Of a DNA stretch of 64,000 bases, positions 1-36,950 are shown one piece after another. The translations under genes and the position numbers were made by a program. Numbering within the stretch: the first letter of the stretch is position 1; each line of letters opens with the position of its first letter. Where the stretch lies: the NCBI GenBank assembly GCA_009914755.4, contig CP068257.2:31936001-32000000 (forward strand). The letters are read 5' to 3'. This DNA comes from the human T2T-CHM13v2.0 reference genome, Homo sapiens. The notes beneath the pieces are model-generated. The model was not told where the DNA came from. It saw only the letters and a program-made list of their open reading frames with translations, and did not search any database.

Positions 1-1231
1 TCCACCAGTCCTAGTGGTGGTAGTGAAGCTGACATTGAAGGGCCTTTGCCTGCTAAAGATATTCATCTTGATTTACCATCTAATAATAACCTTGTTAGTA
101 AGGATACAGAAGAACCATTACCTGTAAAAGAGAGTGACCAGACATTAGCAGCTCTGCTCAGCCCTAAAGAAAGTAGTGGAGGAGAAAAAGAAGTACCTCC
201 CCCTCCTAAAGAGACACTGCCTGATTCAGGATTTTCTGCCAATATTGAGGATATTAATGAAGCAGATTTAGTGAGACCGTTACTTCCTAAGGACATGGAA
301 CGTCTTACAAGCCTTAGAGCTGGCATTGAAGGACCTTTACTTGCAAGTGATGTTGGACGTGACAGATCTGCTGCCAGCCCGGTTGTAAGTAGTATGCCAG
401 AAAGAGCTTCAGAGTCTTCTTCAGAGGAAAAAGATGATTATGAAATTTTTGTAAAAGTTAAGGACACTCACGAAAAAAGCAAGAAAAATAAGAACCGTGA
501 TAAGGGGGAGAAAGAGAAGAAAAGAGACTCTTCATTAAGATCTCGAAGTAAGCGTTCCAAATCTTCTGAACACAAATCACGCAAGCGTACCAGTGAATCT
601 CGTTCTAGGGCAAGAAAGAGATCATCTAAGTCCAAGTCTCATCGCTCTCAGACACGTTCACGGTCACGTTCAAGACGCAGGAGGAGAAGCAGCAGATCAA
701 GATCAAAGTCTAGAGGAAGAAGATCTGTATCAAAAGAGAAGCGCAAAAGATCTCCAAAGCACAGATCCAAGTCTAGGGAAAGAAAAAGAAAAAGATCAAG
801 CTCCAGGGATAACCGAAAGACAGTTAGAGCTCGAAGTCGAACCCCAAGTCGTCGGAGTCGGAGTCATACTCCAAGTCGTCGACGAAGGTCTAGATCTGTG
901 GGTAGAAGAAGGAGCTTTAGCATTTCCCCAAGCCGCCGCAGCCGCACCCCCAGCCGCCGCAGCCGCACCCCCAGCCGCCGCAGCCGCACCCCCAGCCGCC
1001 GCAGCCGCACCCCCAGCCGCCGGAGCCGCACCCCTAGCCGTCGGAGCCGCACCCCAAGCCGCCGGAGAAGATCAAGGTCTGTGGTAAGAAGACGAAGCTT
1101 CAGTATCTCACCAGTCAGATTAAGGCGATCAAGAACACCCTTAAGAAGAAGGTTTAGCAGATCTCCCATCCGTCGTAAAAGATCCAGGTCTTCTGAACGA
1201 GGCAGATCACCCAAACGTCTGACAGATTTGG
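1..1231 (+). CDS. SON: SON exon 3, 3' part of the giant exon (RS / arginine-serine repeat domain). Partial CDS entering from upstream of the window; codon phase 0 at base 1.
   Basis: Open frame over 1..1231 translating ...SRRSRTPSRRSRTP...RSPKRLTDL. The exon ends with G (first base of the Asp codon) before a GTGAGT donor at 1232. The protein continues seamlessly into the next exon (LTDL-DKAQLLEI). Confidence 0.92.
926..1068 (+). repeat. SON: 21-bp tandem DNA repeat (about 6.8 copies) encoding the (PSRRSRT)n heptad array of the SON RS domain
   Basis: CCCCAGCCGCCGCAGCCGCAC repeated head-to-tail inside SON exon 3. Confidence 0.9.
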
Positions 1232-2995: not shown

Positions 2996-3156
2996 ATAAG
3001 GCTCAATTACTTGAAATAGCCAAAGCTAATGCAGCTGCCATGTGTGCTAAGGCTGGTGTCCCTTTACCACCAAACCTAAAGCCTGCACCTCCACCTACTA
3101 TAGAAGAGAAAGTTGCTAAAAAGTCAGGAGGAGCTACTATAGAAGAACTAACTGAG
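2996..3156 (+). CDS. SON: SON exon 4 (..DKAQLLEIAKANAAAMCAKAGVPLPPNLKPAPPPTIEEKVAKKSGGATIEELTE)
   Basis: Acceptor tcttacAG|AT at 2994-2995. Donor GAG|GTAAGC at 3157. 161 nt = 2+53 codons, phase-consistent with exon 3. Confidence 0.9.
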
Positions 3157-3221
3157 GTAAGCTAGACAGAATTTGTTTTCATTCTTAAATGGATTATTCC
3201 AGTGATGTTGACTCTGGAGCG

Positions 3222-3714
3222 TGCCAAAACCCGAATTGTGGGCAGAACTGATAATGGCTGGCACCGAGTGGCCAAAACCCGAAATACAGATGTGGCAGCG
3301 GCAGAAGCTCTGTTTAGCAGGCCATTATCCGGGATGGCTAAGCTCCGCTAGCTAAAAGTTACTTCCCATTACTTTTGCTTTCCAGTTTTAGAAGCCAAAC
3401 TGACTGAGGAGTGGGACGGTTCGTTTGAATGGAGGAGGTGTTGAGTGAGCAACACGCAGAAGCTCGCCTACAGTTTCGTTTCCATTCACGACGCGTTCAC
3501 TGATCGCCACGAGTATACTGCATATACGCAAAGACACAGACAATCTTCAGAAATGATCTTTTGCCACCGGAGCTTGGAAATTAATAAGAATAGCTGGCCA
3601 TTGCCTGAAAGGAACTTCTTTCGCATCAACATTTCGGGTTTTGGCTGTTTGGTACCAGCCATTGGCGATAATGGCCGGCCATTATCAGTTCTTCCTGCGG
3701 TTCGGGTTTTGGCA
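3222..3714. mobile_element. Unclassified 493-bp CpG-rich element bounded by about 36-bp terminal inverted repeats, with nested sub-repeats. MITE-like, or a long intronic hairpin. It does not match the Alu, L1, MIR, hAT or MER motifs I recognise.
   Basis: The ends are TGCCAAAACCCGAA (3222-3235) and its reverse complement TTCGGGTTTTGGCA (3701-3714). The 13-mer GCCAAAACCCGAA occurs twice directly on the left and twice inverted on the right. CTGATAATGGC and GCCATTATCAG motifs are present, along with the perfect 18-bp palindrome ATAATGGCCGGCCATTAT near 3667-3684. There are about 25 CpGs in 493 bp (observed/expected about 0.8), whereas the flanking intron is CpG-poor. Confidence 0.5.
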
Positions 3715-5069: not shown

Positions 5070-5216
5070 AAATGTAAACAGATCGCACAGAGTAAAGAAG
5101 ATGATGATGTAATAGTGAATAAACCTCATGTTTCGGATGAAGAGGAAGAAGAACCTCCTTTTTATCATCATCCCTTTAAACTCAGTGAACCCAAACCTAT
5201 TTTTTTCAATCTGAAT
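5070..5216 (+). CDS. SON: SON exon 5 (KCKQIAQSKEDDDVIVNKPHVSDEEEEEPPFYHHPFKLSEPKPIFFNLN)
   Basis: Acceptor cttttaaAG|A. Donor AAT|GTGAGT at 5217. 147 nt = 49 codons. Confidence 0.9.
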
Positions 5217-5426: not shown

Positions 5427-5615
5427 ATTGCTGCAGCAAAACCAACTCCACCAAAAAGCCAGGTAACATTAACAAAAGAATTCCCTGTATCATCTGGATC
5501 TCAACATCGGAAAAAAGAAGCGGATAGTGTTTATGGAGAATGGGTTCCTGTGGAGAAAAATGGTGAAGAAAACAAAGATGATGATAATGTTTTCAGCAGC
5601 AATTTGCCCTCAGAG
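5427..5615 (+). CDS. SON: SON exon 6 (IAAAKPTPPKSQV...NVFSSNLPSE)
   Basis: Acceptor ttttAG|ATT. Donor GAG|GTAAGT at 5616. 189 nt = 63 codons. Confidence 0.9.
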
Positions 5616-5716
5616 GTAAGTAGGAGGAATATTATGTATTTTTCCTTTTTTATACCTGAATCTGCCATTTCATTGTTATGTTATGTCTGATTTGGATTCT
5701 GTTTCACTCTTCTTAG

Positions 5717-5971
5717 GGCCGGGTTAAACGGCAGGGCCGGGTTAGACGACAGATGAAACAACCCGCAGCTTCTCATTTGACAGTAACTCGATGCAATTCA
5801 CTTTGTGGAACCAAGCCACAAAGTGAAAAGCATCGAATTGCAGAGAACAGTGTTATCACATCCCTACCCAACATTGGGCCCTCCCTGCACTTGTGGGAAG
5901 GTAGTCCAAGGTACAACTATTTAGCTTCCCGATTTGCTTCAAGGCTCTATAGCTCTAGATTTTGGTGGTAG
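5717..5971 (+). CDS. SON: Candidate alternative terminal coding exon of SON. Spliced after exon 6 it would add an 84-aa tail, GRVKRQGRVRRQMKQPAAS...SRFWW*. A 3'UTR would then follow to poly(A) signals at 6484 / 6787.
   Basis: A strong acceptor tgtttcactcttcttAG|GGC sits at 5715-5716, in phase with the phase-0 end of exon 6. The frame stays open for 255 nt to a TAG at 5969-5971. AATAAA lies at 6484-6489 and 6787-6792. The composition is CpG-rich and unlike the surrounding intron. Confidence 0.4.
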   Translation, partial: GRVKRQGRVRRQMKQPAASHLTVTRCNSLCGTKPQSEKHRIAENSVITSLPNIGPSLHLWEGSPRYNYLASRFASRLYSSRFWW

Positions 5972-8900
5972 CAAATTTATCGGGTGGAGGGATTGATCGG
6001 AGAGGGCAGATCCTCAGGTTCAACACAAGAACTGGATTGGAAAAGGTCATTGTAGGTTGATGTGAGCATCTTGGGTACATAGCCCATTGCCCTTAATGAT
6101 GGTTTCTTACTGTTTCTCTGGGTTGTTTGTCAGATAGCCTTTAATTTTAATTATTTTTCCTTCCCTTTGCTACCTTGGCCCTTTTAAATTCTTGTGTTTA
6201 ACCTAATGCTCAGCCTTGGTACTCCATTCCCTTCTCCTTCCCCTCTTTGCTACTATTAAAAGTCGGAGAAGTGGAATTCAAACGTTGAAATTTCCACGGG
6301 GCTATAGTTGTATCTTAATAATGCCAAGTGTCAAAACAACCCCATTAAAATGCCGCCTGATTAAATAATGTGCTGCTAAATATAGTGCACATGAAAACAG
6401 CAAGACTGTATATATATGTAAATATATATATATATCTGTATCTTTGTATGTATCTCTGTATCTGTACCTTTGCTGTATCTTTTAATAAACAGTTTACTTT
6501 TATTTAACTTGTTGTGCAAAATCACGCTTGGGGGATGTGGGAGGGTGGAGTCTTAATAGGGGGGTGGGAGTTTTAATTACTATAGATTAGTTGTCATCGC
6601 CTCTTGCCCTTGGTTTCCAAAGCCCAGACTTTTGCCAAGGACTGGACTAGGTATCTGATGCCCATCTGGACATTTTTCTTGCAGTTCTTGGATATGTAGA
6701 TCAGAGACACCTGTACTCTTCACTGTAGGTTCCCTTCCTTGGCTTGGCCATATCATCATCTTCCAGTAAACACCTCCAATTCTACAAATAAATCCTGTTT
6801 ATAAAATCAGAAAGTGAACAGAACCCAAATCAGAAACTTTTTGATAGCAGTACTTTTCTCCCCAAGCTATTCACAGCTGACATTTTCACTTTTTTTTTGT
6901 TTGTTTGACCTGCAGCATTTTGAGAGAACAAGTTCTGTACAATGAAGCTGGACATGATAACTAGCCAGTGCAACTTACAGTTACTGGTGATAATCTGTAT
7001 TCCCATGGGATTCAACAAGTGAAGCAAGTTATGCCATCACCAGTTAAGAGGGAGATAGTTGGTTTGGATAATATTTTAGTGAGACCATTTGAGTTGTTAA
7101 TCCCCCAATCAGGCTACCTGCATATCTCAAGAGAGAAAGGTTAACTGACATGTGCAGCTGACTTAATCTTCTTGTAGTAGCTGAATAGAAACCATGATAA
7201 GAGGGTTGAACAGGCTTACTTAGAAATCCTAATATGTATGCTTTTAGTAATTTCCTGCAGTTTAAGCATTTAAAAAAGAGTTGGAAAAAAAAATAGGTAG
7301 GGAGAGAGTCTGTATGACAAATATTTTCCACTGAAGACTTAACAAATATTGCAGAATTCCAAGGGATCTTCCTGAGAAGATAAGTGAGCATAACTGTTTT
7401 GAATTTCTTCGGTTCAATCATGGGGAAAGTGCTTAGTAACTCCTGATGCTTACACTTTTTTGAGAGAGAGAGAGTGTGTGTGTGCGTCTATTTATTTGAA
7501 ATTTAGTACTCAGCCATTTTCAATCTTAACACTGAGTGTGGTGCCTTAGCCTTGTTTGTCATCAAAAGTTGTCAGATTTTAATTAAAGGTTGAGGAGAAT
7601 TATTCTTAAATCTGGTGGGAAAAGTTGATAGAGAAAGGTACTCAAATAATGGTGACATTATTTTTTGTTAAAAAAATTTTTTTTCTTACCAAAGAAGAAT
7701 CCTAGAAGGTAAAATTATTTTACAATTCTTTTCAAAGGGCTAAATGAATAAAGCAGATGATGTCTCTTGTGGGACGATATATGTAACTATTTGATATAAA
7801 ACCTCTTTAAGCTGCTTAGAAGATTAGACTCAAAAGAACATACAGATTAATTCTAAAGAAGAGAATCCCAAAATACAAGGGCAAAGAGGCAGGATTGCCT
7901 TTTGCTTTCATATCTGCACTTTTACCTGGCAATAATGTTAAAATGTGTAGAGGAAATAGTCACAATTTAAAATGTTTAGTTCCAGTTATTTAGTGACCAT
8001 CTAAATATACTATATTGTATATATAGAAGGTAAAAGTAATGAATTTATTATTTATACAATTAGTGTTATATATACCAATGTTGTGAAATACTTTTGGTAA
8101 CACTTCGTGGGAGCATTAACCCTTTTGATTCCTTGTTAGAGTTTGAAATAAAGGCTTCTAGAGTAAAAGGAGATAGTTCTTTTAAATGGTCAACCTTTGA
8201 ACTGAATAGTAATTTTTATCTATGCCTTTTTCATTTTAATAAATATAAATGGAGTTTGTGGTTCTTTGTTGTTGAGCATAAAACATTTAGGCAAAGATCA
8301 CAGATTTTATCTCCATAAGAGGGCTGAATTAGCTTTGCTGTAATCCCTAATCCCACCAATTGTCTTGCATATGAATGCTCTTTGACATGAGTATGAATGG
8401 ATAGACATTGTGGATGAAGCAGCATAAATTCATTTCTTATGGAAAAACAACTCATCAGACTGTGTGCGGTACTGCCATAGCATCGTCTTCATACTCAGAA
8501 ACCAGCCAGCATCATCCTCAGTAAGGAGTGACTACAGAACTTTGACTGTATTTGTGTGAATTTGATTTATAAACAATGAAATAAAATGTTGGAAAACTAA
8601 TATTTTAAAAATAGTCCTCAGGGGCATTAATTCTTGGTAATAAAGTTAGTAGAGGTTTATTGAGTAGAAGATTAGGATGTAATCTTTGACATAAGTGGAG
8701 TAGTAACTACTCAACTATTAGTGTGGAGTTTTCATGGATTTAGTATCAATCAAATGTTTTAGGGGTCCAGAGGTAGTATTGTTAAGGTCTAGTGAATGCT
8801 TAGATGTTAAGATCATCTTTATGTTAAGCAGTTTACTGGTTTGTATTTATCAAATCATATTTCCACATCCCAATGGAATTACAATTTTTTTAAATTTATA

Positions 8901-12996: not shown

Positions 12997-13107
12997 CCTG
13001 TGGACATCTCTACAGCAATGAGTGAACGGGCACTTGCTCAGAAAAGACTCAGTGAGAATGCATTTGATCTTGAAGCCATGAGCATGTTAAATAGAGCTCA
13101 GGAAAGG
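12997..13107 (+). CDS. SON: SON exon 7 (PVDISTAMSERALAQKRLSENAFDLEAMSMLNRAQER)
   Basis: Acceptor ttcttAG|CCT. Donor AGG|GTATGT at 13108. 111 nt = 37 codons. Confidence 0.9.
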
Positions 13108-14810: not shown

Positions 14811-14927
14811 ATTGATGCCTGGGCTCAGCTGAACTCTATTCCTGGCCAGTTCACAGGAAGTACAGGAGTACAGGTTTTGACACAAGAACAGTTGGCCAAT
14901 ACTGGTGCCCAAGCCTGGATTAAAAAG
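14811..14927 (+). CDS. SON: SON exon 8 (IDAWAQLNSIPGQFTGSTGVQVLTQEQLANTGAQAWIKK)
   Basis: Acceptor ttttcttcAG|ATT. Donor AAG|GTACAC at 14928. 117 nt = 39 codons. Confidence 0.9.
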
Positions 14928-15699: not shown

Positions 15700-18010
15700 A
15701 ATTTCATGACAAAACAGATATGTAAGACCTAAAATCAAGGGAGAGAATGGACGCCTCGTGCTACGAAGATGTAGGTGCATCTGGTTTCAGATTCTGCAGT
15801 GAGACCTGTGAACTCCACCTACGGCTGCCTCATCATTGGGGGAGTCTTAGGTGGCTAAGAAGGGCATTCTGAAGAAACGCGTTGTGGTGAAGGGACAAAG
15901 CTTGGTTGGATGGGTGATGGGAAATTTGTTACAGGAGTACTGGCAGCATAGCAGTGCTGAAACTGGGAGGCCGCGTGGTCTAATGGATTGGGAAGGTTTC
16001 TTTATCCTGTTGTACTCCTGACTCCTTGTGTAATCATGGGCAAGTAACTCTTTGGAATTTCAAAGTCTCTGAGGTGTCTAGTGGTAATCAGTAACGTGAT
16101 GGTTACCTATAGAGAGTTGCTATGAGTGCCAGTGAATGAGCTGAATTTCTGAAAAATGAGACATTGGTTGCTTTGTGTATTTTAATCTTGTAACATTTAT
16201 TTCAATTTTGATAGCTTTATCTTTGTTGATCTTACTAACAAATTAATATGAAACATCATGTATACTCATTATGCCTGCCTTTTTTTGGGAAGTAGTTGCA
16301 CTGATGTGTATAGTGAGTACACAGTTAGATTCATTAAGAAATTACAATTTCTGCAGTTTGCTGAGGGTTGGTGTTAGAATAAAGGGTGAAAATGTATATA
16401 GCAAAATATTTTAAAGATTGGATTAATCTTGGACTTCTATATTATAGTTACTATGAAAGTGATTTATATAATATTTGAAAAAATGTCTTTCATCTTTGGA
16501 AGAACTATAAATGTACATCTATTTCTTTAGTTTTAATTCTTTAATACTATTTAGTCTTGAAGCTAAGTACTCAGCCAGTATTTCAGGAAGTTAGAAATAA
16601 AGCTTATGGGTGTTAAAATAGGCACATAATACAGAGTCATGTACACTGCTAGGTAGAAACTTCTGAATGTGCTTCCATTACAAAATTTTGGTCTTTATCT
16701 AATGATGTGCTGATCCATAATGTTTGTATACTTATAAATGTGTTAATAACTTAAATAACTTTTAAAAAGTGAATCTTTTACTGACTCAATTGGTTTTCCC
16801 CTAAAATAATTTCTTCTGGTATTTGCAGTCTTGTAGGCAGTTAACAGACTTTAATAACTTTAAAATGTTTAGTAGCACCTTGAAAAAAGGCTTCAACTTT
16901 ATATTTTATGTAAGATATACTTTGGGAAGCAAATTATTTTGATAAATTATGAGATAAAGATATGTTCAGACCAAATTTTAAATTATAGATAAAAGTAGCA
17001 CTTAAAGGAAAAGATTCATTTGTATAGAATTACTGAAGAATATTTGATGCTAGTATCAACTAAAAAAGAAACTTTTGAAAATTAAAAATGGGCCACAACA
17101 TGTAGAAGTCATTAGGCAGCTGAAAATTTAGGATGTATGATCCATGTTAAATATCACAAATATTGTCTACTCATTAAATGTTTAGTTGTGTTTAGAAAAC
17201 CTGTCAAACGATCATTTTGGCTCTTCTTTAGTATAGTCCAGCATCTGCCTTATGTGTTAAAAAACACATGGAATACCAACATCCTCCGTGTTCTTTTTAG
17301 TTTGTTGCAGTGTATTTTTAGATTACAAAAAAAGCAAAGTTTTATCAGTAGTCTCATTAATCAGTAAAACATTTAAAGTAGTTCGTTTAAAAGAAATTTT
17401 ATTTCTAGAATGGAATGATTTGGATGTGACCTGATAAATACAGTTTGTTATTGTGGTCTCATTAAATTAATCAGCTTTTTCACACTGGGGTAAAGAAACA
17501 GATGATGATACTAGGGAATGGAAACAAAATTGGAAACCTGGGTTATTTGGGGATTTATATTGTACTCTGCACAGTTGCCCTTTTTTTTAGGCGTGTTCCC
17601 TGGAAAAGAGGGACGGATGAACCTGGAAGTAAGTAAAAGACATTCTAGGTGTGTAGCATCAAGGCAGTTAATATCCAAGCATCAGCTTTCTCTTTATACA
17701 TCTACACTGCATGGCCTGCACCAAATAAGGAACTGAACCAGGGGTATGTTTTTACCTCCACAGCTGCCTCCTTCCATCAGAGCACCTTGATGAACTTAAT
17801 GTCTAGTCACACGTCATTGGCATGTTTTCTCCCCAGCATTTAATTACAAAGCTGGGAAACAAAAGATGATAGATACAGTTTTACTACTGCATACAAACAT
17901 TTCTTTTTTACATTCAGTATTAACTTATCAATATAGGAGATGTGCATACTATTTCCTGAGCTACTGAAGTTTTTTTACTCTCTCTGTTGATAAGTTAATG
18001 ACTTTTGCTA

Positions 18011-18050: not shown

Positions 18051-19145
18051 AGAACATAAAAACCTAAAATTTAGTAACAAGGGGAAAATAAAGCATGATT
18101 TGGAGATATGTTTCAAATTTTTAAAAAATGACCATAAAGATCAACAGTACAACTTAATACTGTTTGCTATATGTACATGGATGCCCTTTAATAAGAGGCA
18201 TTGAATATTTCTTAACCTGTAAAAATAACTGTTGACCATGCTAATGTATATATACTTGTGCATCTTAGGACATTAAGTGGTTTGCTGCTTTGATGGAAAT
18301 TATGGTTCAGTGGGTTGGATACAAGAGAGATGACTGTTCACAGAATAACCTGTGAACTTTCACCCCTCTGTATGGAAACTTGTTTCAGGGCCAAATCCTT
18401 GTAGCTGTCTTCTTGCCCCGGTCAGTGCCAGCCGTACTATTCACAACACTGCTGCTACCGAGGCCTAGGTATGTAAACATTTAAGGAGTTTTTTAAAAGT
18501 CTTTTAACATCAAGCTAGGTTTTAAAAGAATTCAAATTCATTTTGGCATACTTACAGGATATTTTATGTGATTGTTTTCTATTTGTTACTGTGTAAATTT
18601 CAAGAGTTTTTTTTTTTTTTTCTGCTTTAGGGATTTTCTAAGTAAAATATTTATACTTGCTTTATAGTAGAATGGGGAAGAAAACTTTGGATGACAACAG
18701 TATGCTTCTTCAGTGTCTAAACTATTTCTAAGTGATTTCTGGGCTTTATTCATAAACTAGGTACACCTGGGACAATTAATATCATTGATTGTTTTAACAT
18801 TGCCTTCTTTTTATTTTGCAAGCTAAGAAGAGATACCAGTGAACCTAAATAGTGGACGAAAACAGGAGTGTTCTAATTTTTTTTTTTTGAGGGGGGCACG
18901 AGGGCTACTGTTTCAAAACTGCCATTTACTTGTCTTATTTGACTTCCAAAATACTATTACGTTAATGTGCAAATAATCAGAACATACACACTACAGTATG
19001 TATAAAGTATAGAGGAATTTACATTTAATTGCTATAACAGATCTAGAAGTAAAGTAAGATTCCTCTTTTTAGAAAGTAAACAATGAATCTGTCACCAAGT
19101 TCTAACTGTAAAATGGGGACATTTTACCTTTCTTTCTTTGGATAG

Positions 19146-19293
19146 GATCAGTTCTTAAGAGCAGCCCCGGTAACTGGAGGAATGGGAGCCGTTTTGATGA
19201 GAAAAATGGGCTGGAGAGAAGGAGAAGGATTAGGAAAAAACAAAGAAGGCAACAAGGAACCCATCCTAGTTGATTTTAAGACAGACCGAAAAG
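19146..19293 (+). CDS. SON: SON exon 9, G-patch domain (DQFLRAAPVTGGMGAVLMRKMGWREGEGLGKNKEGNKEPILVDFKTDRK+G)
   Basis: Acceptor ggatAG|GAT. Donor AAAAG|GTAACA at 19294. 148 nt = 49 codons + 1. The glycine-rich G-patch motif is recognisable. Confidence 0.9.
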
Positions 19294-21432: not shown

Positions 21433-21504
21433 GTCTTGTTGCAGTAGGAGAAAGAGCACAAAAGAGGTCTGGGAACTTCTCTGCTGCAATGAAAGATCTG
21501 TCAG
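21433..21504 (+). CDS. SON: SON exon 10 (LVAVGERAQKRSGNFSAAMKDLS)
   Basis: Acceptor ttttttttaaAG|GT. Donor TCAG|GTGAGA at 21505. 72 nt = 2+23 codons+1, phase-consistent. Confidence 0.88.
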
Positions 21505-21614: not shown

Positions 21615-21730
21615 GCAAACATCCTGTGTCTGCTTTGATGGAGATCTGTAATAAAAGAAGGTGGCAACCACCTGAATTTCTATTGGTCCATGATAGTGGC
21701 CCTGATCATCGCAAACATTTTCTCTTTAGG
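21615..21730 (+). CDS. SON: SON exon 11 (KHPVSALMEICNKRRWQPPEFLLVHDSGPDHRKHFLFR)
   Basis: Acceptor cccctgcAG|GC. Donor AGG|GTAAAT at 21731. 116 nt = 2+38 codons. Confidence 0.88.
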
Positions 21731-22182: not shown

Positions 22183-22288
22183 ATTGTATGTTTTTCTTGA
22201 ATAGGTATTGAGAAATGGAAGCCCTTACCAGCCCAATTGTATGTTTTTCTTGAATAGGTATTGATAAATGGAAGCGCTTACCAGCCCA
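22183..22288 (+). repeat. SON: 53-bp tandem duplication (2 copies, 51/53 identical) spanning the 3' splice site and first 31 nt of the SON terminal coding exon
   Basis: Copy 1 is 22183-22235 (..cttgaatagGTATTGAGAAATGGAAGCCCTTACCAGCCCAA). Copy 2 is 22236-22288 (..cttgaatagGTATTGATAAATGGAAGCGCTTACCAGCCCAG). Confidence 0.9.
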
Positions 22289-36541: not shown

Positions 36542-36950
36542 TAAACAAATATACCATGGTTTTCTCTCCTTCAAGCTATTGGTTACTTCAAGTTGCTTTG
36601 GGAGGGGTGATGAGGAAAAGCAAAGGGTGAGGTACACTACATAATGGAGTGAGGAAAACTCACAAGCCACTTCTATCTCTGCGAGTACCTACTGGTGTAC
36701 CACCAGATACACTTTGATAAATATTAAAGAGCAGCTATTTAAACGAAATATAAGATCAGTGCAAAAGTAAATGCAGTTTTTGCCATTACTTTCAATGGCA
36801 AAAACCACAATTATGTTTGCACCAACCTAATAATAAAATATGGAGGCAACAGGTACATGGCGAGAGCTAAAACAAAAGTGGGACTGCCTGCCTTAGCTCC
36901 CTGAAAATAGAAAAACAAACAAGAACAATGATTTGGTTACTTTAGCGTAC

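What the first reader, a model, noticed from the sequence alone, without database searches (positions are those of the whole stretch)
5717..6500. In-frame, CpG-rich candidate alternative terminal exon of SON, with an 18-mer tandem repeat and a strong hairpin
A strong 3' splice site at 5715-5716 opens a 255-nt ORF in phase with exon 6. It is followed by AATAAA signals at 6484 and 6787, and would yield a SON isoform lacking the G-patch and dsRBD. SON is known to have truncated isoforms.

The segment looks compositionally odd. It has tandem 18-mers GGCCGGGTTAAACGGCAG / GGCCGGGTTAGACGACAG, an extended inverted repeat TGCAATTCACTTTGTGG-aaccaagc-CCACAAAGTGAAAAGCATCGAATTGCA that can form a bulged hairpin of about 25 bp, and many CpGs.
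Basis: partly seen in the sequence, partly recalled or inferred. Interest (0 to 1): 0.5.

Follow-up and report, generated by a model that had tools for sequence, protein, structure and literature searches.

The report
Known SON-B terminal exon, ultraconserved hairpin
This is the already published alternative last exon ("exon 7a") that makes the short SON B isoform of the human splicing factor SON. Its odd composition reflects extreme conservation: about 200 bases, including a stable RNA hairpin, are identical in human, langur and camel.

Summary

- **Identity.** Window 5717-~6505 is SON alternative terminal exon 7a. The published SON B-specific primer spans exactly the exon 6 | 5717 junction.
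- **Product.** The exon adds an 84-residue tail with a stop at 5972-5974, and omits exons 7-12 (G-patch, dsRBD).
- **Poly(A) site.** The AATAAA at 6484 is the conserved site. Eight UGUA motifs lie in the 100 nt before it, the densest cluster in the 64 kb window. GU- and G-rich elements follow it. The AATAAA at 6787 is not conserved.
- **Conservation.** 5686-5884 (branch point, 3' splice site, both 18-mers, hairpin) is 100% identical in human, langur and camel. Constitutive SON exons differ by 4% between human and camel. All five human-camel differences in the ORF are synonymous and lie in its last 87 nt.
- **CpGs.** All eight coding CpGs are retained in camel. Selection explains them; this is not a CpG island.
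- **Hairpin.** 5783-5841 forms 23 bp at -32.3 kcal/mol (z -7.4).
- **Age.** The exon is undetectable in turtle and cassowary SON.

I infer that the invariant block is an RNA-level control module for the choice between exon 7a and exon 7. This is not shown. The conserved hairpin appears undescribed.

The parts
5427..5615 (+). SON constitutive exon 6 (63 codons, phase 0, donor GAG|GTAAGT). Its 5' splice site is shared by exon 7a and exon 7.
   Evidence: translation IAAAKPTPP...NLPSE, matches SON proteins.
5616..5716 (+). 101-nt mini-intron between exon 6 and exon 7a. It holds a branch-point candidate CTGAT at 5687-5691, the polypyrimidine tract 5697-5714 and the AG at 5715-5716. UUAG|GG at the junction contains a UAGGG (hnRNP A1-type) motif.
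   Evidence: Sequence. 91% identical human-camel overall and 100% from 5686.
5717..6505 (+). SON alternative terminal exon 7a (SON B). The 3' end is approximate, inferred as about 15-25 nt after the AATAAA at 6484.
   Evidence: The published junction primer maps to exon 6 | 5717. Conservation falls to intronic level after about 6560.
5717..5974 (+). Coding part of exon 7a: 84 codons (GRVKRQGRVRRQMKQPAASHLTVTRCNSLCGTKPQSEKHRIAENSVITSLPNIGPSLHLWEGSPRYNYLASRFASRLYSSRFWW) plus the TAG stop at 5972-5974.
   Evidence: Identical protein in camel and langur. The 5 human-camel differences are all synonymous. No Pfam family.
5717..5752 (+). In-frame tandem duplication of an 18-mer, GGCCGGGTTAAACGGCAG / GGCCGGGTTAGACGACAG, encoding GRVKRQ / GRVRRQ.
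   Evidence: 16/18 identical. Both copies are identical in camel and langur.
5783..5841 (+). Stable hairpin inside the coding sequence: 4 bp, bulge, 7 bp, 2x2 internal loop, 12 perfect bp, loop AACCAAG.
   Evidence: -32.3 kcal/mol, z -7.4. Kept in the larger context. Second-best local inverted repeat in the window. Sequence invariant in three mammals.
5686..5884 (+). 199-nt block with no substitution among human, langur and camel. It covers the branch point, 3' splice site, the 18-mers, the hairpin and 43 nt beyond it.
   Evidence: The expected number of synonymous differences in its 56 codons is 6.6 and 0 are observed (P about 0.001).
6320..6536 (+). Second near-invariant block (about 99% human-camel) at the end of the 3' UTR and just past the cleavage site.
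6407..6477 (+). Array of 8 UGUA motifs within the TA/TGTATC repeat-like sequence. This is a candidate CFIm (NUDT21/CPSF6) upstream enhancer of the poly(A) site.
   Evidence: 8 per 100 nt against a window mean of 0.59; the maximum in the 64 kb, reached only here. Identical in camel.
6484..6489 (+). AATAAA poly(A) signal of exon 7a.
   Evidence: Conserved in camel and langur.
6510..6551 (+). Downstream elements: GU-rich TTGTTGTG followed by G-rich GGGGGATGTGGGAGGGTGGAG.
   Evidence: Sequence. Conserved in camel up to about 6550.
6787..6792 (+). Probably not the main site.
   Evidence: It is AGTAAA in camel, and the surrounding region is 75-79% identical, the intronic level.

Best explanation
**Shown.** Window 5717-~6505 is the alternative last exon 7a of human SON.

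- The 5' splice site of exon 6 can join the acceptor at 5717, 101 nt away, instead of exon 7, which is 7.4 kb away.
- The transcript is then cleaved and polyadenylated after the AATAAA at 6484.
- The mRNA (SON B) encodes SON through exon 6 plus an 84-residue tail. It lacks exons 7-12, and so lacks the G-patch and the double-stranded-RNA-binding domain.
- The tail is under protein-level selection: only synonymous changes separate human and camel.
- The first 168 nt of the exon plus the last 31 nt of the intron are invariant even at synonymous sites.

**Inferred.**

- The invariant block, with its 23-bp hairpin and duplicated 18-mer, is an RNA-level control module. It would set how often exon 7a is used instead of exon 7.
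- The UGUA array makes the poly(A) site dependent on CFIm.
- The whole arrangement resembles the ultraconserved alternative exons through which other splicing regulators hold their own levels steady.
- The most likely role of the hairpin is to present or hide splicing-regulator sites close to the 3' splice site, or to act as a binding site for a dsRNA-binding protein.
For: - **Junction.** The SON B-specific primer 'R-SON Exon7a' maps across exon 6 | 5717, and the paper's figure legend names E7a as the SON B alternative exon.
- **Exon map and phase.**. 207 residues follow exon 6 in the full-length protein. Then 2426 - 207 + 84 = 2303, the length I remember for RefSeq SON isoform B (from memory, not checked here).
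- **Conservation.** The human-camel identity profile peaks at 100% over 5701-5800 and 99% over 6401-6500. The rest of intron 6 is about 70-78% identical. Langur is identical over 5686-5996.
- **Selection.** Constitutive exons 4-11 show 42 synonymous and 0 non-synonymous differences in 354 codons. Exon 7a shows 5 synonymous and 0 non-synonymous differences, none of them in the first 56 codons (P about 0.001).
- **Hairpin.**
- **Poly(A) site.** UGUA array and poly(A) site architecture.
- **Function of the isoforms.** The short isoforms SON B and SON E are reported as functionally distinct and upregulated in leukaemia (PMC8455679 and PMC5602094, both citing Kim et al. 2016).
Against: - The regulatory role of the hairpin and the 18-mers is inference only.
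- The three mammalian sequences are identical, so there is no covariation to support the structure.
- No rodent, marsupial or monotreme sequence could be obtained.
- No expression, CLIP or structure-probing data could be consulted.
- The synonymous constraint could come from dense exonic splicing enhancers, with no requirement for the fold.
- The published primer differs from the predicted junction by one printed base.
- The accession NM_032195 and the 2303-residue length rest on my memory.
Confidence: 0.8

Rival explanations
1. Only protein coding matters. The tail is a functional peptide, and the lack of synonymous change reflects ordinary exonic splicing enhancers near a regulated 3' splice site. 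The hairpin and the 18-mer duplication would be incidental consequences of the coding sequence.
For: The tail protein is 100% identical in camel and langur, and all 5 nucleotide differences are synonymous. There is no covariation evidence for the fold.
Against: Zero synonymous differences occur in 56 codons where 6.6 are expected from the neighbouring constitutive SON exons (P about 0.001). The invariance extends 31 nt into the intron. A -32 kcal/mol hairpin with z -7.4 is not expected by chance in a coding sequence. The tail matches no known domain.
Confidence: 0.2
2. The hairpin is a dsRNA-binding-protein site or an enzyme substrate. It could be an A-to-I editing substrate, or a Drosha/DGCR8-cleaved, miRNA-like hairpin that destroys SON B transcripts.
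For: It is a 23-bp, nearly continuous helix of high stability. SON pre-mRNA is a known conserved ADAR target elsewhere. There is a weak mir-3914-like Rfam hit on the minus strand (E = 3.1).
Against: The conserved SON editing sites listed by Pinto et al. are in exon 3 (c.1264 and c.1782), not here. The stem is well short of the roughly 33-35 bp of a canonical pri-miRNA, and the flanks do not extend it. No Rfam family reaches its threshold.
Confidence: 0.1
3. The conserved CpG-containing block is a DNA-level element, such as an intragenic enhancer, an alternative promoter or a CpG island, rather than an RNA or exon feature.
For: CpG o/e is 0.54-0.61 against 0.11-0.35 in the flanks. The region is strongly conserved.
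Against: Conservation is delimited by RNA-processing signals: the branch point at its 5' edge and the poly(A) signal with downstream elements at its 3' edge. The substitution pattern in the ORF is purely synonymous. GC 48% and o/e below or at 0.6 over less than 300 nt do not meet island criteria. A spliced junction is published.
Confidence: 0.03

Closest known systems
SON B / exon 7a, and SON E / exon 5a (Kim et al., Mol Cell 2016; described in PMC8455679)
   Same: It is the same exon. The published SON B primer spans the exon 6 | 5717 junction, and the isoform lacks the C-terminal G-patch and dsRBD.
   Different: Nothing differs at the level of the exon. The papers I could read do not mention the invariant 199-nt block, the hairpin, the 18-mer duplication or the UGUA array.
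Ultraconserved alternative exons of splicing regulators: SR and hnRNP genes (Lareau et al. 2007; Ni et al. 2007; from my knowledge)
   Same: An alternative exon of a splicing regulator that is conserved at every nucleotide, synonymous sites included. This suggests homeostatic control of isoform output.
   Different: Those are mostly cassette 'poison' exons or 3' UTR introns that trigger NMD. Exon 7a is a terminal exon with its own poly(A) site, and its stop codon lies in the last exon, so it should yield a stable, translated, truncated protein. Conservation here was tested only in three boreoeutherian mammals, and the exon is absent from turtle and bird.
Alternative last exons made by intronic polyadenylation with CFIm/UGUA-enhanced sites, such as IgM secreted versus membrane forms and the truncating intronic poly(A) isoforms described in immune and leukaemia cells (from my knowledge)
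   Same: A 3' splice site and a poly(A) site inside an intron compete with downstream splicing. The product is a C-terminally truncated protein with altered function.
   Different: This case has an unusually short upstream intron (101 nt), an unusually dense and perfectly conserved UGUA array, and a conserved coding-region hairpin.
Splice-choice hairpins, such as the MAPT exon 10 stem-loop and SMN2 TSL2 (from my knowledge)
   Same: A local, stable stem-loop next to a regulated splice site in an alternatively used exon.
   Different: Those stems overlap the 5' splice site they regulate. This one sits 66 nt inside the exon and does not overlap the 3' splice site, and no effect on splicing has been shown.

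Membership tests
SON exon 7a (SON B terminal exon) | Spliced junction from exon 6 to the exon, as used in published SON B-specific assays. | tested here: met
   The primer reverse complement matches the predicted exon 6 | 5717 cDNA junction (18 nt, one extra printed base) and does not match the genome contiguously.
SON exon 7a (SON B terminal exon) | Open reading frame in phase, giving a protein that ends before the G-patch and dsRBD. | tested here: met
   Phase 0 and an 84-codon tail. The G-patch and dsRBD are encoded by exons 9-12.
SON exon 7a (SON B terminal exon) | Identity with RefSeq NM_032195 / isoform B of 2303 residues. | not testable with these tools
   There is no transcript database here. 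The arithmetic 2426 - 207 + 84 = 2303 agrees with the length I remember (plus memory).
Alternative last exon with its own poly(A) site | Canonical poly(A) signal with upstream and downstream auxiliary elements. | tested here: met
   AATAAA at 6484, 8 UGUA motifs upstream, GU- and G-rich elements downstream, all conserved in camel.
Alternative last exon with its own poly(A) site | Mapped cleavage site in 3'-end sequencing. | not testable with these tools
   No 3'-end sequencing data are available.
Ultraconserved element (Bejerano et al. 2004 definition) | At least 200 bp with 100% identity among human, mouse and rat. | not testable with these tools
   The block is 199 nt identical in human, langur and camel. 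No rodent locus could be fetched.
NMD-inducing poison exon | A premature stop codon followed by a downstream exon junction. | tested here: not met
   As a terminal exon, its stop at 5972 lies in the last exon. Possible internal 5' splice sites (such as CAG|GTTCAA at about 6018) were noted but their use was not tested.
pri-miRNA hairpin | A stem of about 33-35 bp with basal and apical junction features, or a match to a known family. | tested here: not met
   The stem is 23 bp and the flanks are unpaired. No Rfam match reaches threshold.
CpG island | GC above 50% and CpG o/e above 0.6 over more than 200 bp. | tested here: not met
   GC is 48% and o/e is 0.54 (ORF) to 0.61 (5717-6000).
Structured RNA element supported by covariation | Compensatory base changes in the stem across species. 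| tested here: inconclusive
   The three available mammalian sequences are identical in the hairpin. Turtle and cassowary lack the exon.

The most novel reading that the evidence does not exclude
The exon 7a hairpin may act together with a roughly 65-bp ultraconserved duplex that brackets the exon 5a acceptor in intron 4 (3222-3292 / 3624-3714). In this reading both are cis-acting dsRNA sensors. Full-length SON is the only isoform that carries the dsRBD and G-patch, and it would bind these elements to feed back on the choice between full-length and truncated SON B / SON E mRNAs. This would be an autoregulatory circuit built on mammal-specific ultraconserved RNA structures.
Probability: 0.1. 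Interest if true: 0.7.

Novelty: already known. Interest (0 to 1): 0.3.

Why it matters
SON is the scaffold of nuclear speckles and the gene mutated in ZTTK syndrome. The balance between full-length SON and the short SON B / SON E isoforms has been linked to leukaemia.

The exon itself is known, so the finding as stated adds nothing new. The useful addition is a map of exactly which bases are under extreme constraint:

- the branch point to +168 block, containing the hairpin and the duplicated 18-mer;
- the UGUA array;
- the poly(A) site.

This map has three practical uses.

- It gives concrete targets for minigene mutagenesis or antisense oligonucleotides that shift the isoform ratio.
- It flags synonymous or 'intronic' clinical variants in this block as potentially functional.
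- It raises a testable autoregulation hypothesis for a dsRBD-containing splicing factor.

Tried and rejected
- **Protein search with the tail.** A search of the 5.8-billion-protein collection found nothing. This is uninformative. Only 90%-identity cluster representatives are indexed, and an isoform differing only in its tail would probably be merged into the cluster of the full-length protein.
- **Collection scans.** The tail against metagenome contigs and prokaryotic genome contigs, and the hairpin DNA against viral contigs, gave no mammalian contamination to use.
- **Fetching more mammals.** Loci for carnivore, rodent, hamster, lemming, tree shrew, marsupial, elephant shrew and monitor lizard were not on record, because only the longest product per gene is indexed. 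Only camel, langur, turtle and cassowary were retrieved.
- **Long chimeric query.** A 1401-residue query meant to reach full-length SON orthologues was swamped by RS-repeat low complexity and returned 3 hits.
- **Kim et al. 2016.** The paper (PMC4799497) is not held.
- **ADAR editing.** The conserved SON editing sites in Pinto et al. are in exon 3, not here.
- **Long-range pairing.** I tested pairing of the exon 7a 18-mers (CGGGUU...GGCAG) with the similar intron 4 motifs (GCCAAAACCCGAA / UUCGGGUUUUGGC). Duplex energies were within about 2 SD of the background across the pre-mRNA, so the idea was dropped.
- **Known families.** No Rfam family was found and no Pfam family matches the tail.
- **Covariation.** No compensatory changes could be assessed in the hairpin because the sequences are identical. 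None were seen in the intron 4 duplex.
- **Literature.** Searches for the peptide or DNA strings, and for SON autoregulation or ultraconservation, found nothing specific.
Full report
**Where the window lies.** The window starts inside the large exon 3 of human SON. I mapped the rest of the gene by translation and splice signals:

| Exon | Window coordinates |
|---|---|
| 3 (end) | ...-1231 |
| 4 | 2996-3156 |
| 5 | 5070-5216 |
| 6 | 5427-5615 |
| 7 | 12997-13107 |
| 8 | 14811-14927 |
| 9 | 19146-19293 |
| 10 | 21433-21504 |
| 11 | 21615-21730 |
| 12 | 22205 onward |

The joined translation is 100% identical to database SON proteins. Exon 6 is a phase-0 exon of 63 codons with a consensus donor, GAG|GTAAGT.

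**Checking the observation.**
- The AG at 5715-5716 follows the pyrimidine tract TTTCACTCTTCTTAG. A CTGAT branch-point candidate lies 26 nt upstream.
- The frame opened at 5717 runs for 84 codons to a TAG at 5972-5974 and is in phase with exon 6.
- AATAAA occurs at 6484 and 6787.
- The two 18-mers are adjacent, in frame and 16/18 identical. They encode GRVKRQ and GRVRRQ.
- The inverted repeat folds into a 23-bp hairpin at 5783-5841, built as 4 bp, 7 bp and 12 bp around a 7-nt loop. Its energy is -32.3 kcal/mol against -11.3 +/- 2.8 for dinucleotide shuffles (z -7.4).
- The hairpin persists in the MFE and centroid of a 281-nt context. It is the second-strongest short-range inverted repeat in the whole 64 kb.
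- CpG o/e is 0.54-0.61 here against 0.11-0.35 in the flanks. That is enriched, but it is not a CpG island.

**What it is.** Papers from the Ahn laboratory describe twelve constitutive SON exons and two alternative exons: E5a for the short isoform SON E, and E7a for SON B (PMC8455679).
- The supplementary primer table of that paper lists 'R-SON Exon7a (SON B)' as GTTTAACCCGCGCCCTCTG.
- Its reverse complement is CAGAG GGC(G)CGGGTTAAAC. That is the last five bases of exon 6 joined to window 5717 onward.
- It matches my predicted exon 6 | exon 7a cDNA with one extra printed base, and it does not match the genome contiguously.
- The companion 'Exon5' primer spans the exon 4 | 5 junction exactly. 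The 'Exon5a' primer joins exon 4 to window 3386/3387.
- So '7a' means the alternative seventh exon, which lies in intron 6, and the finding is that exon.
- As a cross-check, 207 residues follow exon 6 in full-length SON. Then 2426 - 207 + 84 = 2303, the length I remember for RefSeq isoform B (NM_032195). That number is from memory and could not be verified here.
- The isoform lacks exons 7-12, and so lacks the G-patch and dsRBD that Pfam finds in the C-terminal SON fragments.

**Conservation.** I retrieved SON genomic loci for wild camel (L001), a langur (L003), a box turtle (L002) and a cassowary (L004).
- *Intron background.* Human-camel identity is about 70-78% over most of intron 6.
- *The exon.* Identity is 100% over 5701-5800, 99% over 5801-5900, 91-92% through the middle of the 3' UTR and 99% over 6401-6500. 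It falls to 68-79% after about 6600.
- *Invariant block.* 5686-5884 is invariant in all three mammals. Langur is identical from 5686 to 5996.
- *Comparison with constitutive exons.* Exons 4-11 show 42 human-camel differences in 1061 nt, all synonymous.
- *Substitution pattern.* The exon 7a ORF shows five differences. All are synonymous and all lie in its last 87 nt. The first 56 codons have none where 6.6 are expected (P about 0.001).
- *Reading.* Two layers of constraint follow. Protein-level selection acts on the whole tail. An additional nucleotide-level constraint covers the branch point, the 3' splice site, both 18-mers, the hairpin and 43 nt beyond it.
- *CpGs.* All eight coding CpGs are retained in camel, while the two just after the stop codon are not. 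This accounts for the 'CpG-rich' look.
- *Outside mammals.* In turtle and cassowary every constitutive exon is found by BLAST. Neither the exon 7a block nor its poly(A) block is found, even with sensitive settings or tblastn of the tail. The exon is therefore not detectably older than mammals. I could not obtain rodent, marsupial or monotreme sequence, so its age within mammals is unknown.

**The 3' end.** The AATAAA at 6484 is preceded by eight UGUA motifs within 100 nt. The window mean is 0.59 per 100 nt, and 8 is the maximum of the whole window, reached only here. The signal is followed by TTGTTGTG and a G-rich run. The whole segment 6320-6536 is about 99% identical to camel, including the sequence that Tandem Repeats Finder reads as TA and TGTATC repeats. 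From established knowledge of 3'-end formation, this is the architecture of a CFIm-enhanced poly(A) site. The AATAAA at 6787 is AGTAAA in camel and sits in sequence of intronic conservation. I therefore take 6484 as the functional signal and place the exon end near 6505.

**How it most likely works.** The following is shown.
- The exon 6 donor has a choice between an acceptor 101 nt away (exon 7a) and one 7.4 kb away (exon 7).
- Using the near one, together with cleavage at the conserved poly(A) site, yields SON B.

The following is inferred.
- The near acceptor is well formed and transcribed first, yet full-length SON is described as the main product. Exon 7a use must therefore be held in check.
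- The invariant block is the obvious candidate for that control.
- The block contains a UAGGG motif across the splice junction, two copies of GGCCGGGUUA-A/G-ACG-G/A-CAG, and the hairpin 66 nt into the exon.
- Nucleotide-perfect alternative exons in genes for splicing regulators are a known signature of homeostatic feedback, and I think that is the best reading here.
- I cannot say which factor acts, or whether the fold itself is required. With identical sequences there is no covariation evidence.

Published work assigns the short isoforms a function distinct from full-length SON in MLL/menin-dependent H3K4 methylation, and reports their upregulation in leukaemia.

**Rivals.**
- *Pure protein-coding constraint.* It does not explain the absence of synonymous change or the intronic extension of the invariant block.
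- *miRNA-like or Drosha substrate.* The 23-bp stem is too short and no Rfam family matches.
- *ADAR substrate.* This cannot be excluded, but the conserved SON editing sites in the literature are in exon 3.
- *DNA-level element or CpG island.* This fits poorly. The conserved blocks end at RNA-processing signals and the ORF shows only synonymous change.
- *Long-range pairing.* I also tested whether the exon 7a 18-mers might pair with similar motifs in intron 4. The predicted duplexes are no better than the background.

**Verdict.** What seems not to be described in the papers I could search is the 199-nt invariant block with its coding-region hairpin, and the conserved UGUA array. These are worth a modest follow-up, hence an interest score of 0.3.

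Noticed in passing
window 3222-3292 and 3624-3714 (intron 4), around 3386: A long inverted repeat of about 65 near-perfect base pairs. The 541-nt fold has -214 kcal/mol and z -8.6. It contains duplicated motifs GCCAAAACCCGAA x2 and TTCGGGTTTTGGC x2, and it brackets the exon 5a (SON E) acceptor mapped by the published primer at 3386/3387. The whole 3101-3700 block is CpG-rich and 96-100% identical human-camel, and it is absent from turtle and cassowary. No compensatory changes were seen; two camel differences (3666, 3676) turn a predicted G-C pair into G-U, only 3676-3260 lying in the long duplex.
   Followed up: partly
window 17528-17723 and 18303-18527 (intron 8): Two non-coding blocks conserved from human to turtle and cassowary. 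The second is 88% identical to the bird over 225 nt, higher than most coding exons. The first contains an acceptor at 17590 followed by ACSLEKRDG-stop, which is the tail of human TrEMBL entry A0A8Q3SI10 (P0023), a truncation just before the G-patch. The second contains a 20-bp-arm hairpin at 18324-18369. Together they look like an ancient alternative or poison exon system, older than exons 5a and 7a.
   Followed up: partly
window 22183-22288 (exon 12 acceptor): A 53-nt tandem duplication (96% identical) duplicates the exon 12 acceptor and its first codons. Use of the first copy gives ...VLRNGSPYQPNCMFFLNRY-stop. Proteins in the database that use the second copy continue as VLINGSAYQPSFASPNKKHAK...SASRR, with a complete dsRBD.
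   Followed up: partly
window 6205-6330 (exon 7a 3' UTR): A sub-threshold Rfam match to SMAD5-AS1 conserved region 2 (25.3 bits, gathering score 50, E = 0.0028). It may reflect a shared ancient repeat or be chance.
   Followed up: no
window 36749-36832: The strongest short-range inverted repeat of the window, with 39-nt arms containing GGTTGGTGCAAAAGTAAT-like sequence. It looks like a MADE1 / mir-548-type palindromic element; this identification is from memory and was not tested.
   Followed up: no
PMC8455679, supplementary primer table: The printed exon 7a and exon 5a junction primers each differ from the predicted junction by one base (an extra base and a missing T, respectively). The 'Exon5 (SON B)' primer is labelled R and is printed in antisense orientation, although the SON B pair needs a forward primer. 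These are probably typographical or text-extraction errors.
   Followed up: partly
window 926-1064 (exon 3): 6.6 tandem copies of a 21-nt unit, 94% matching, encoding the PSRRSRT heptad repeats of the SON RS region. This is a known feature of the protein.
   Followed up: no
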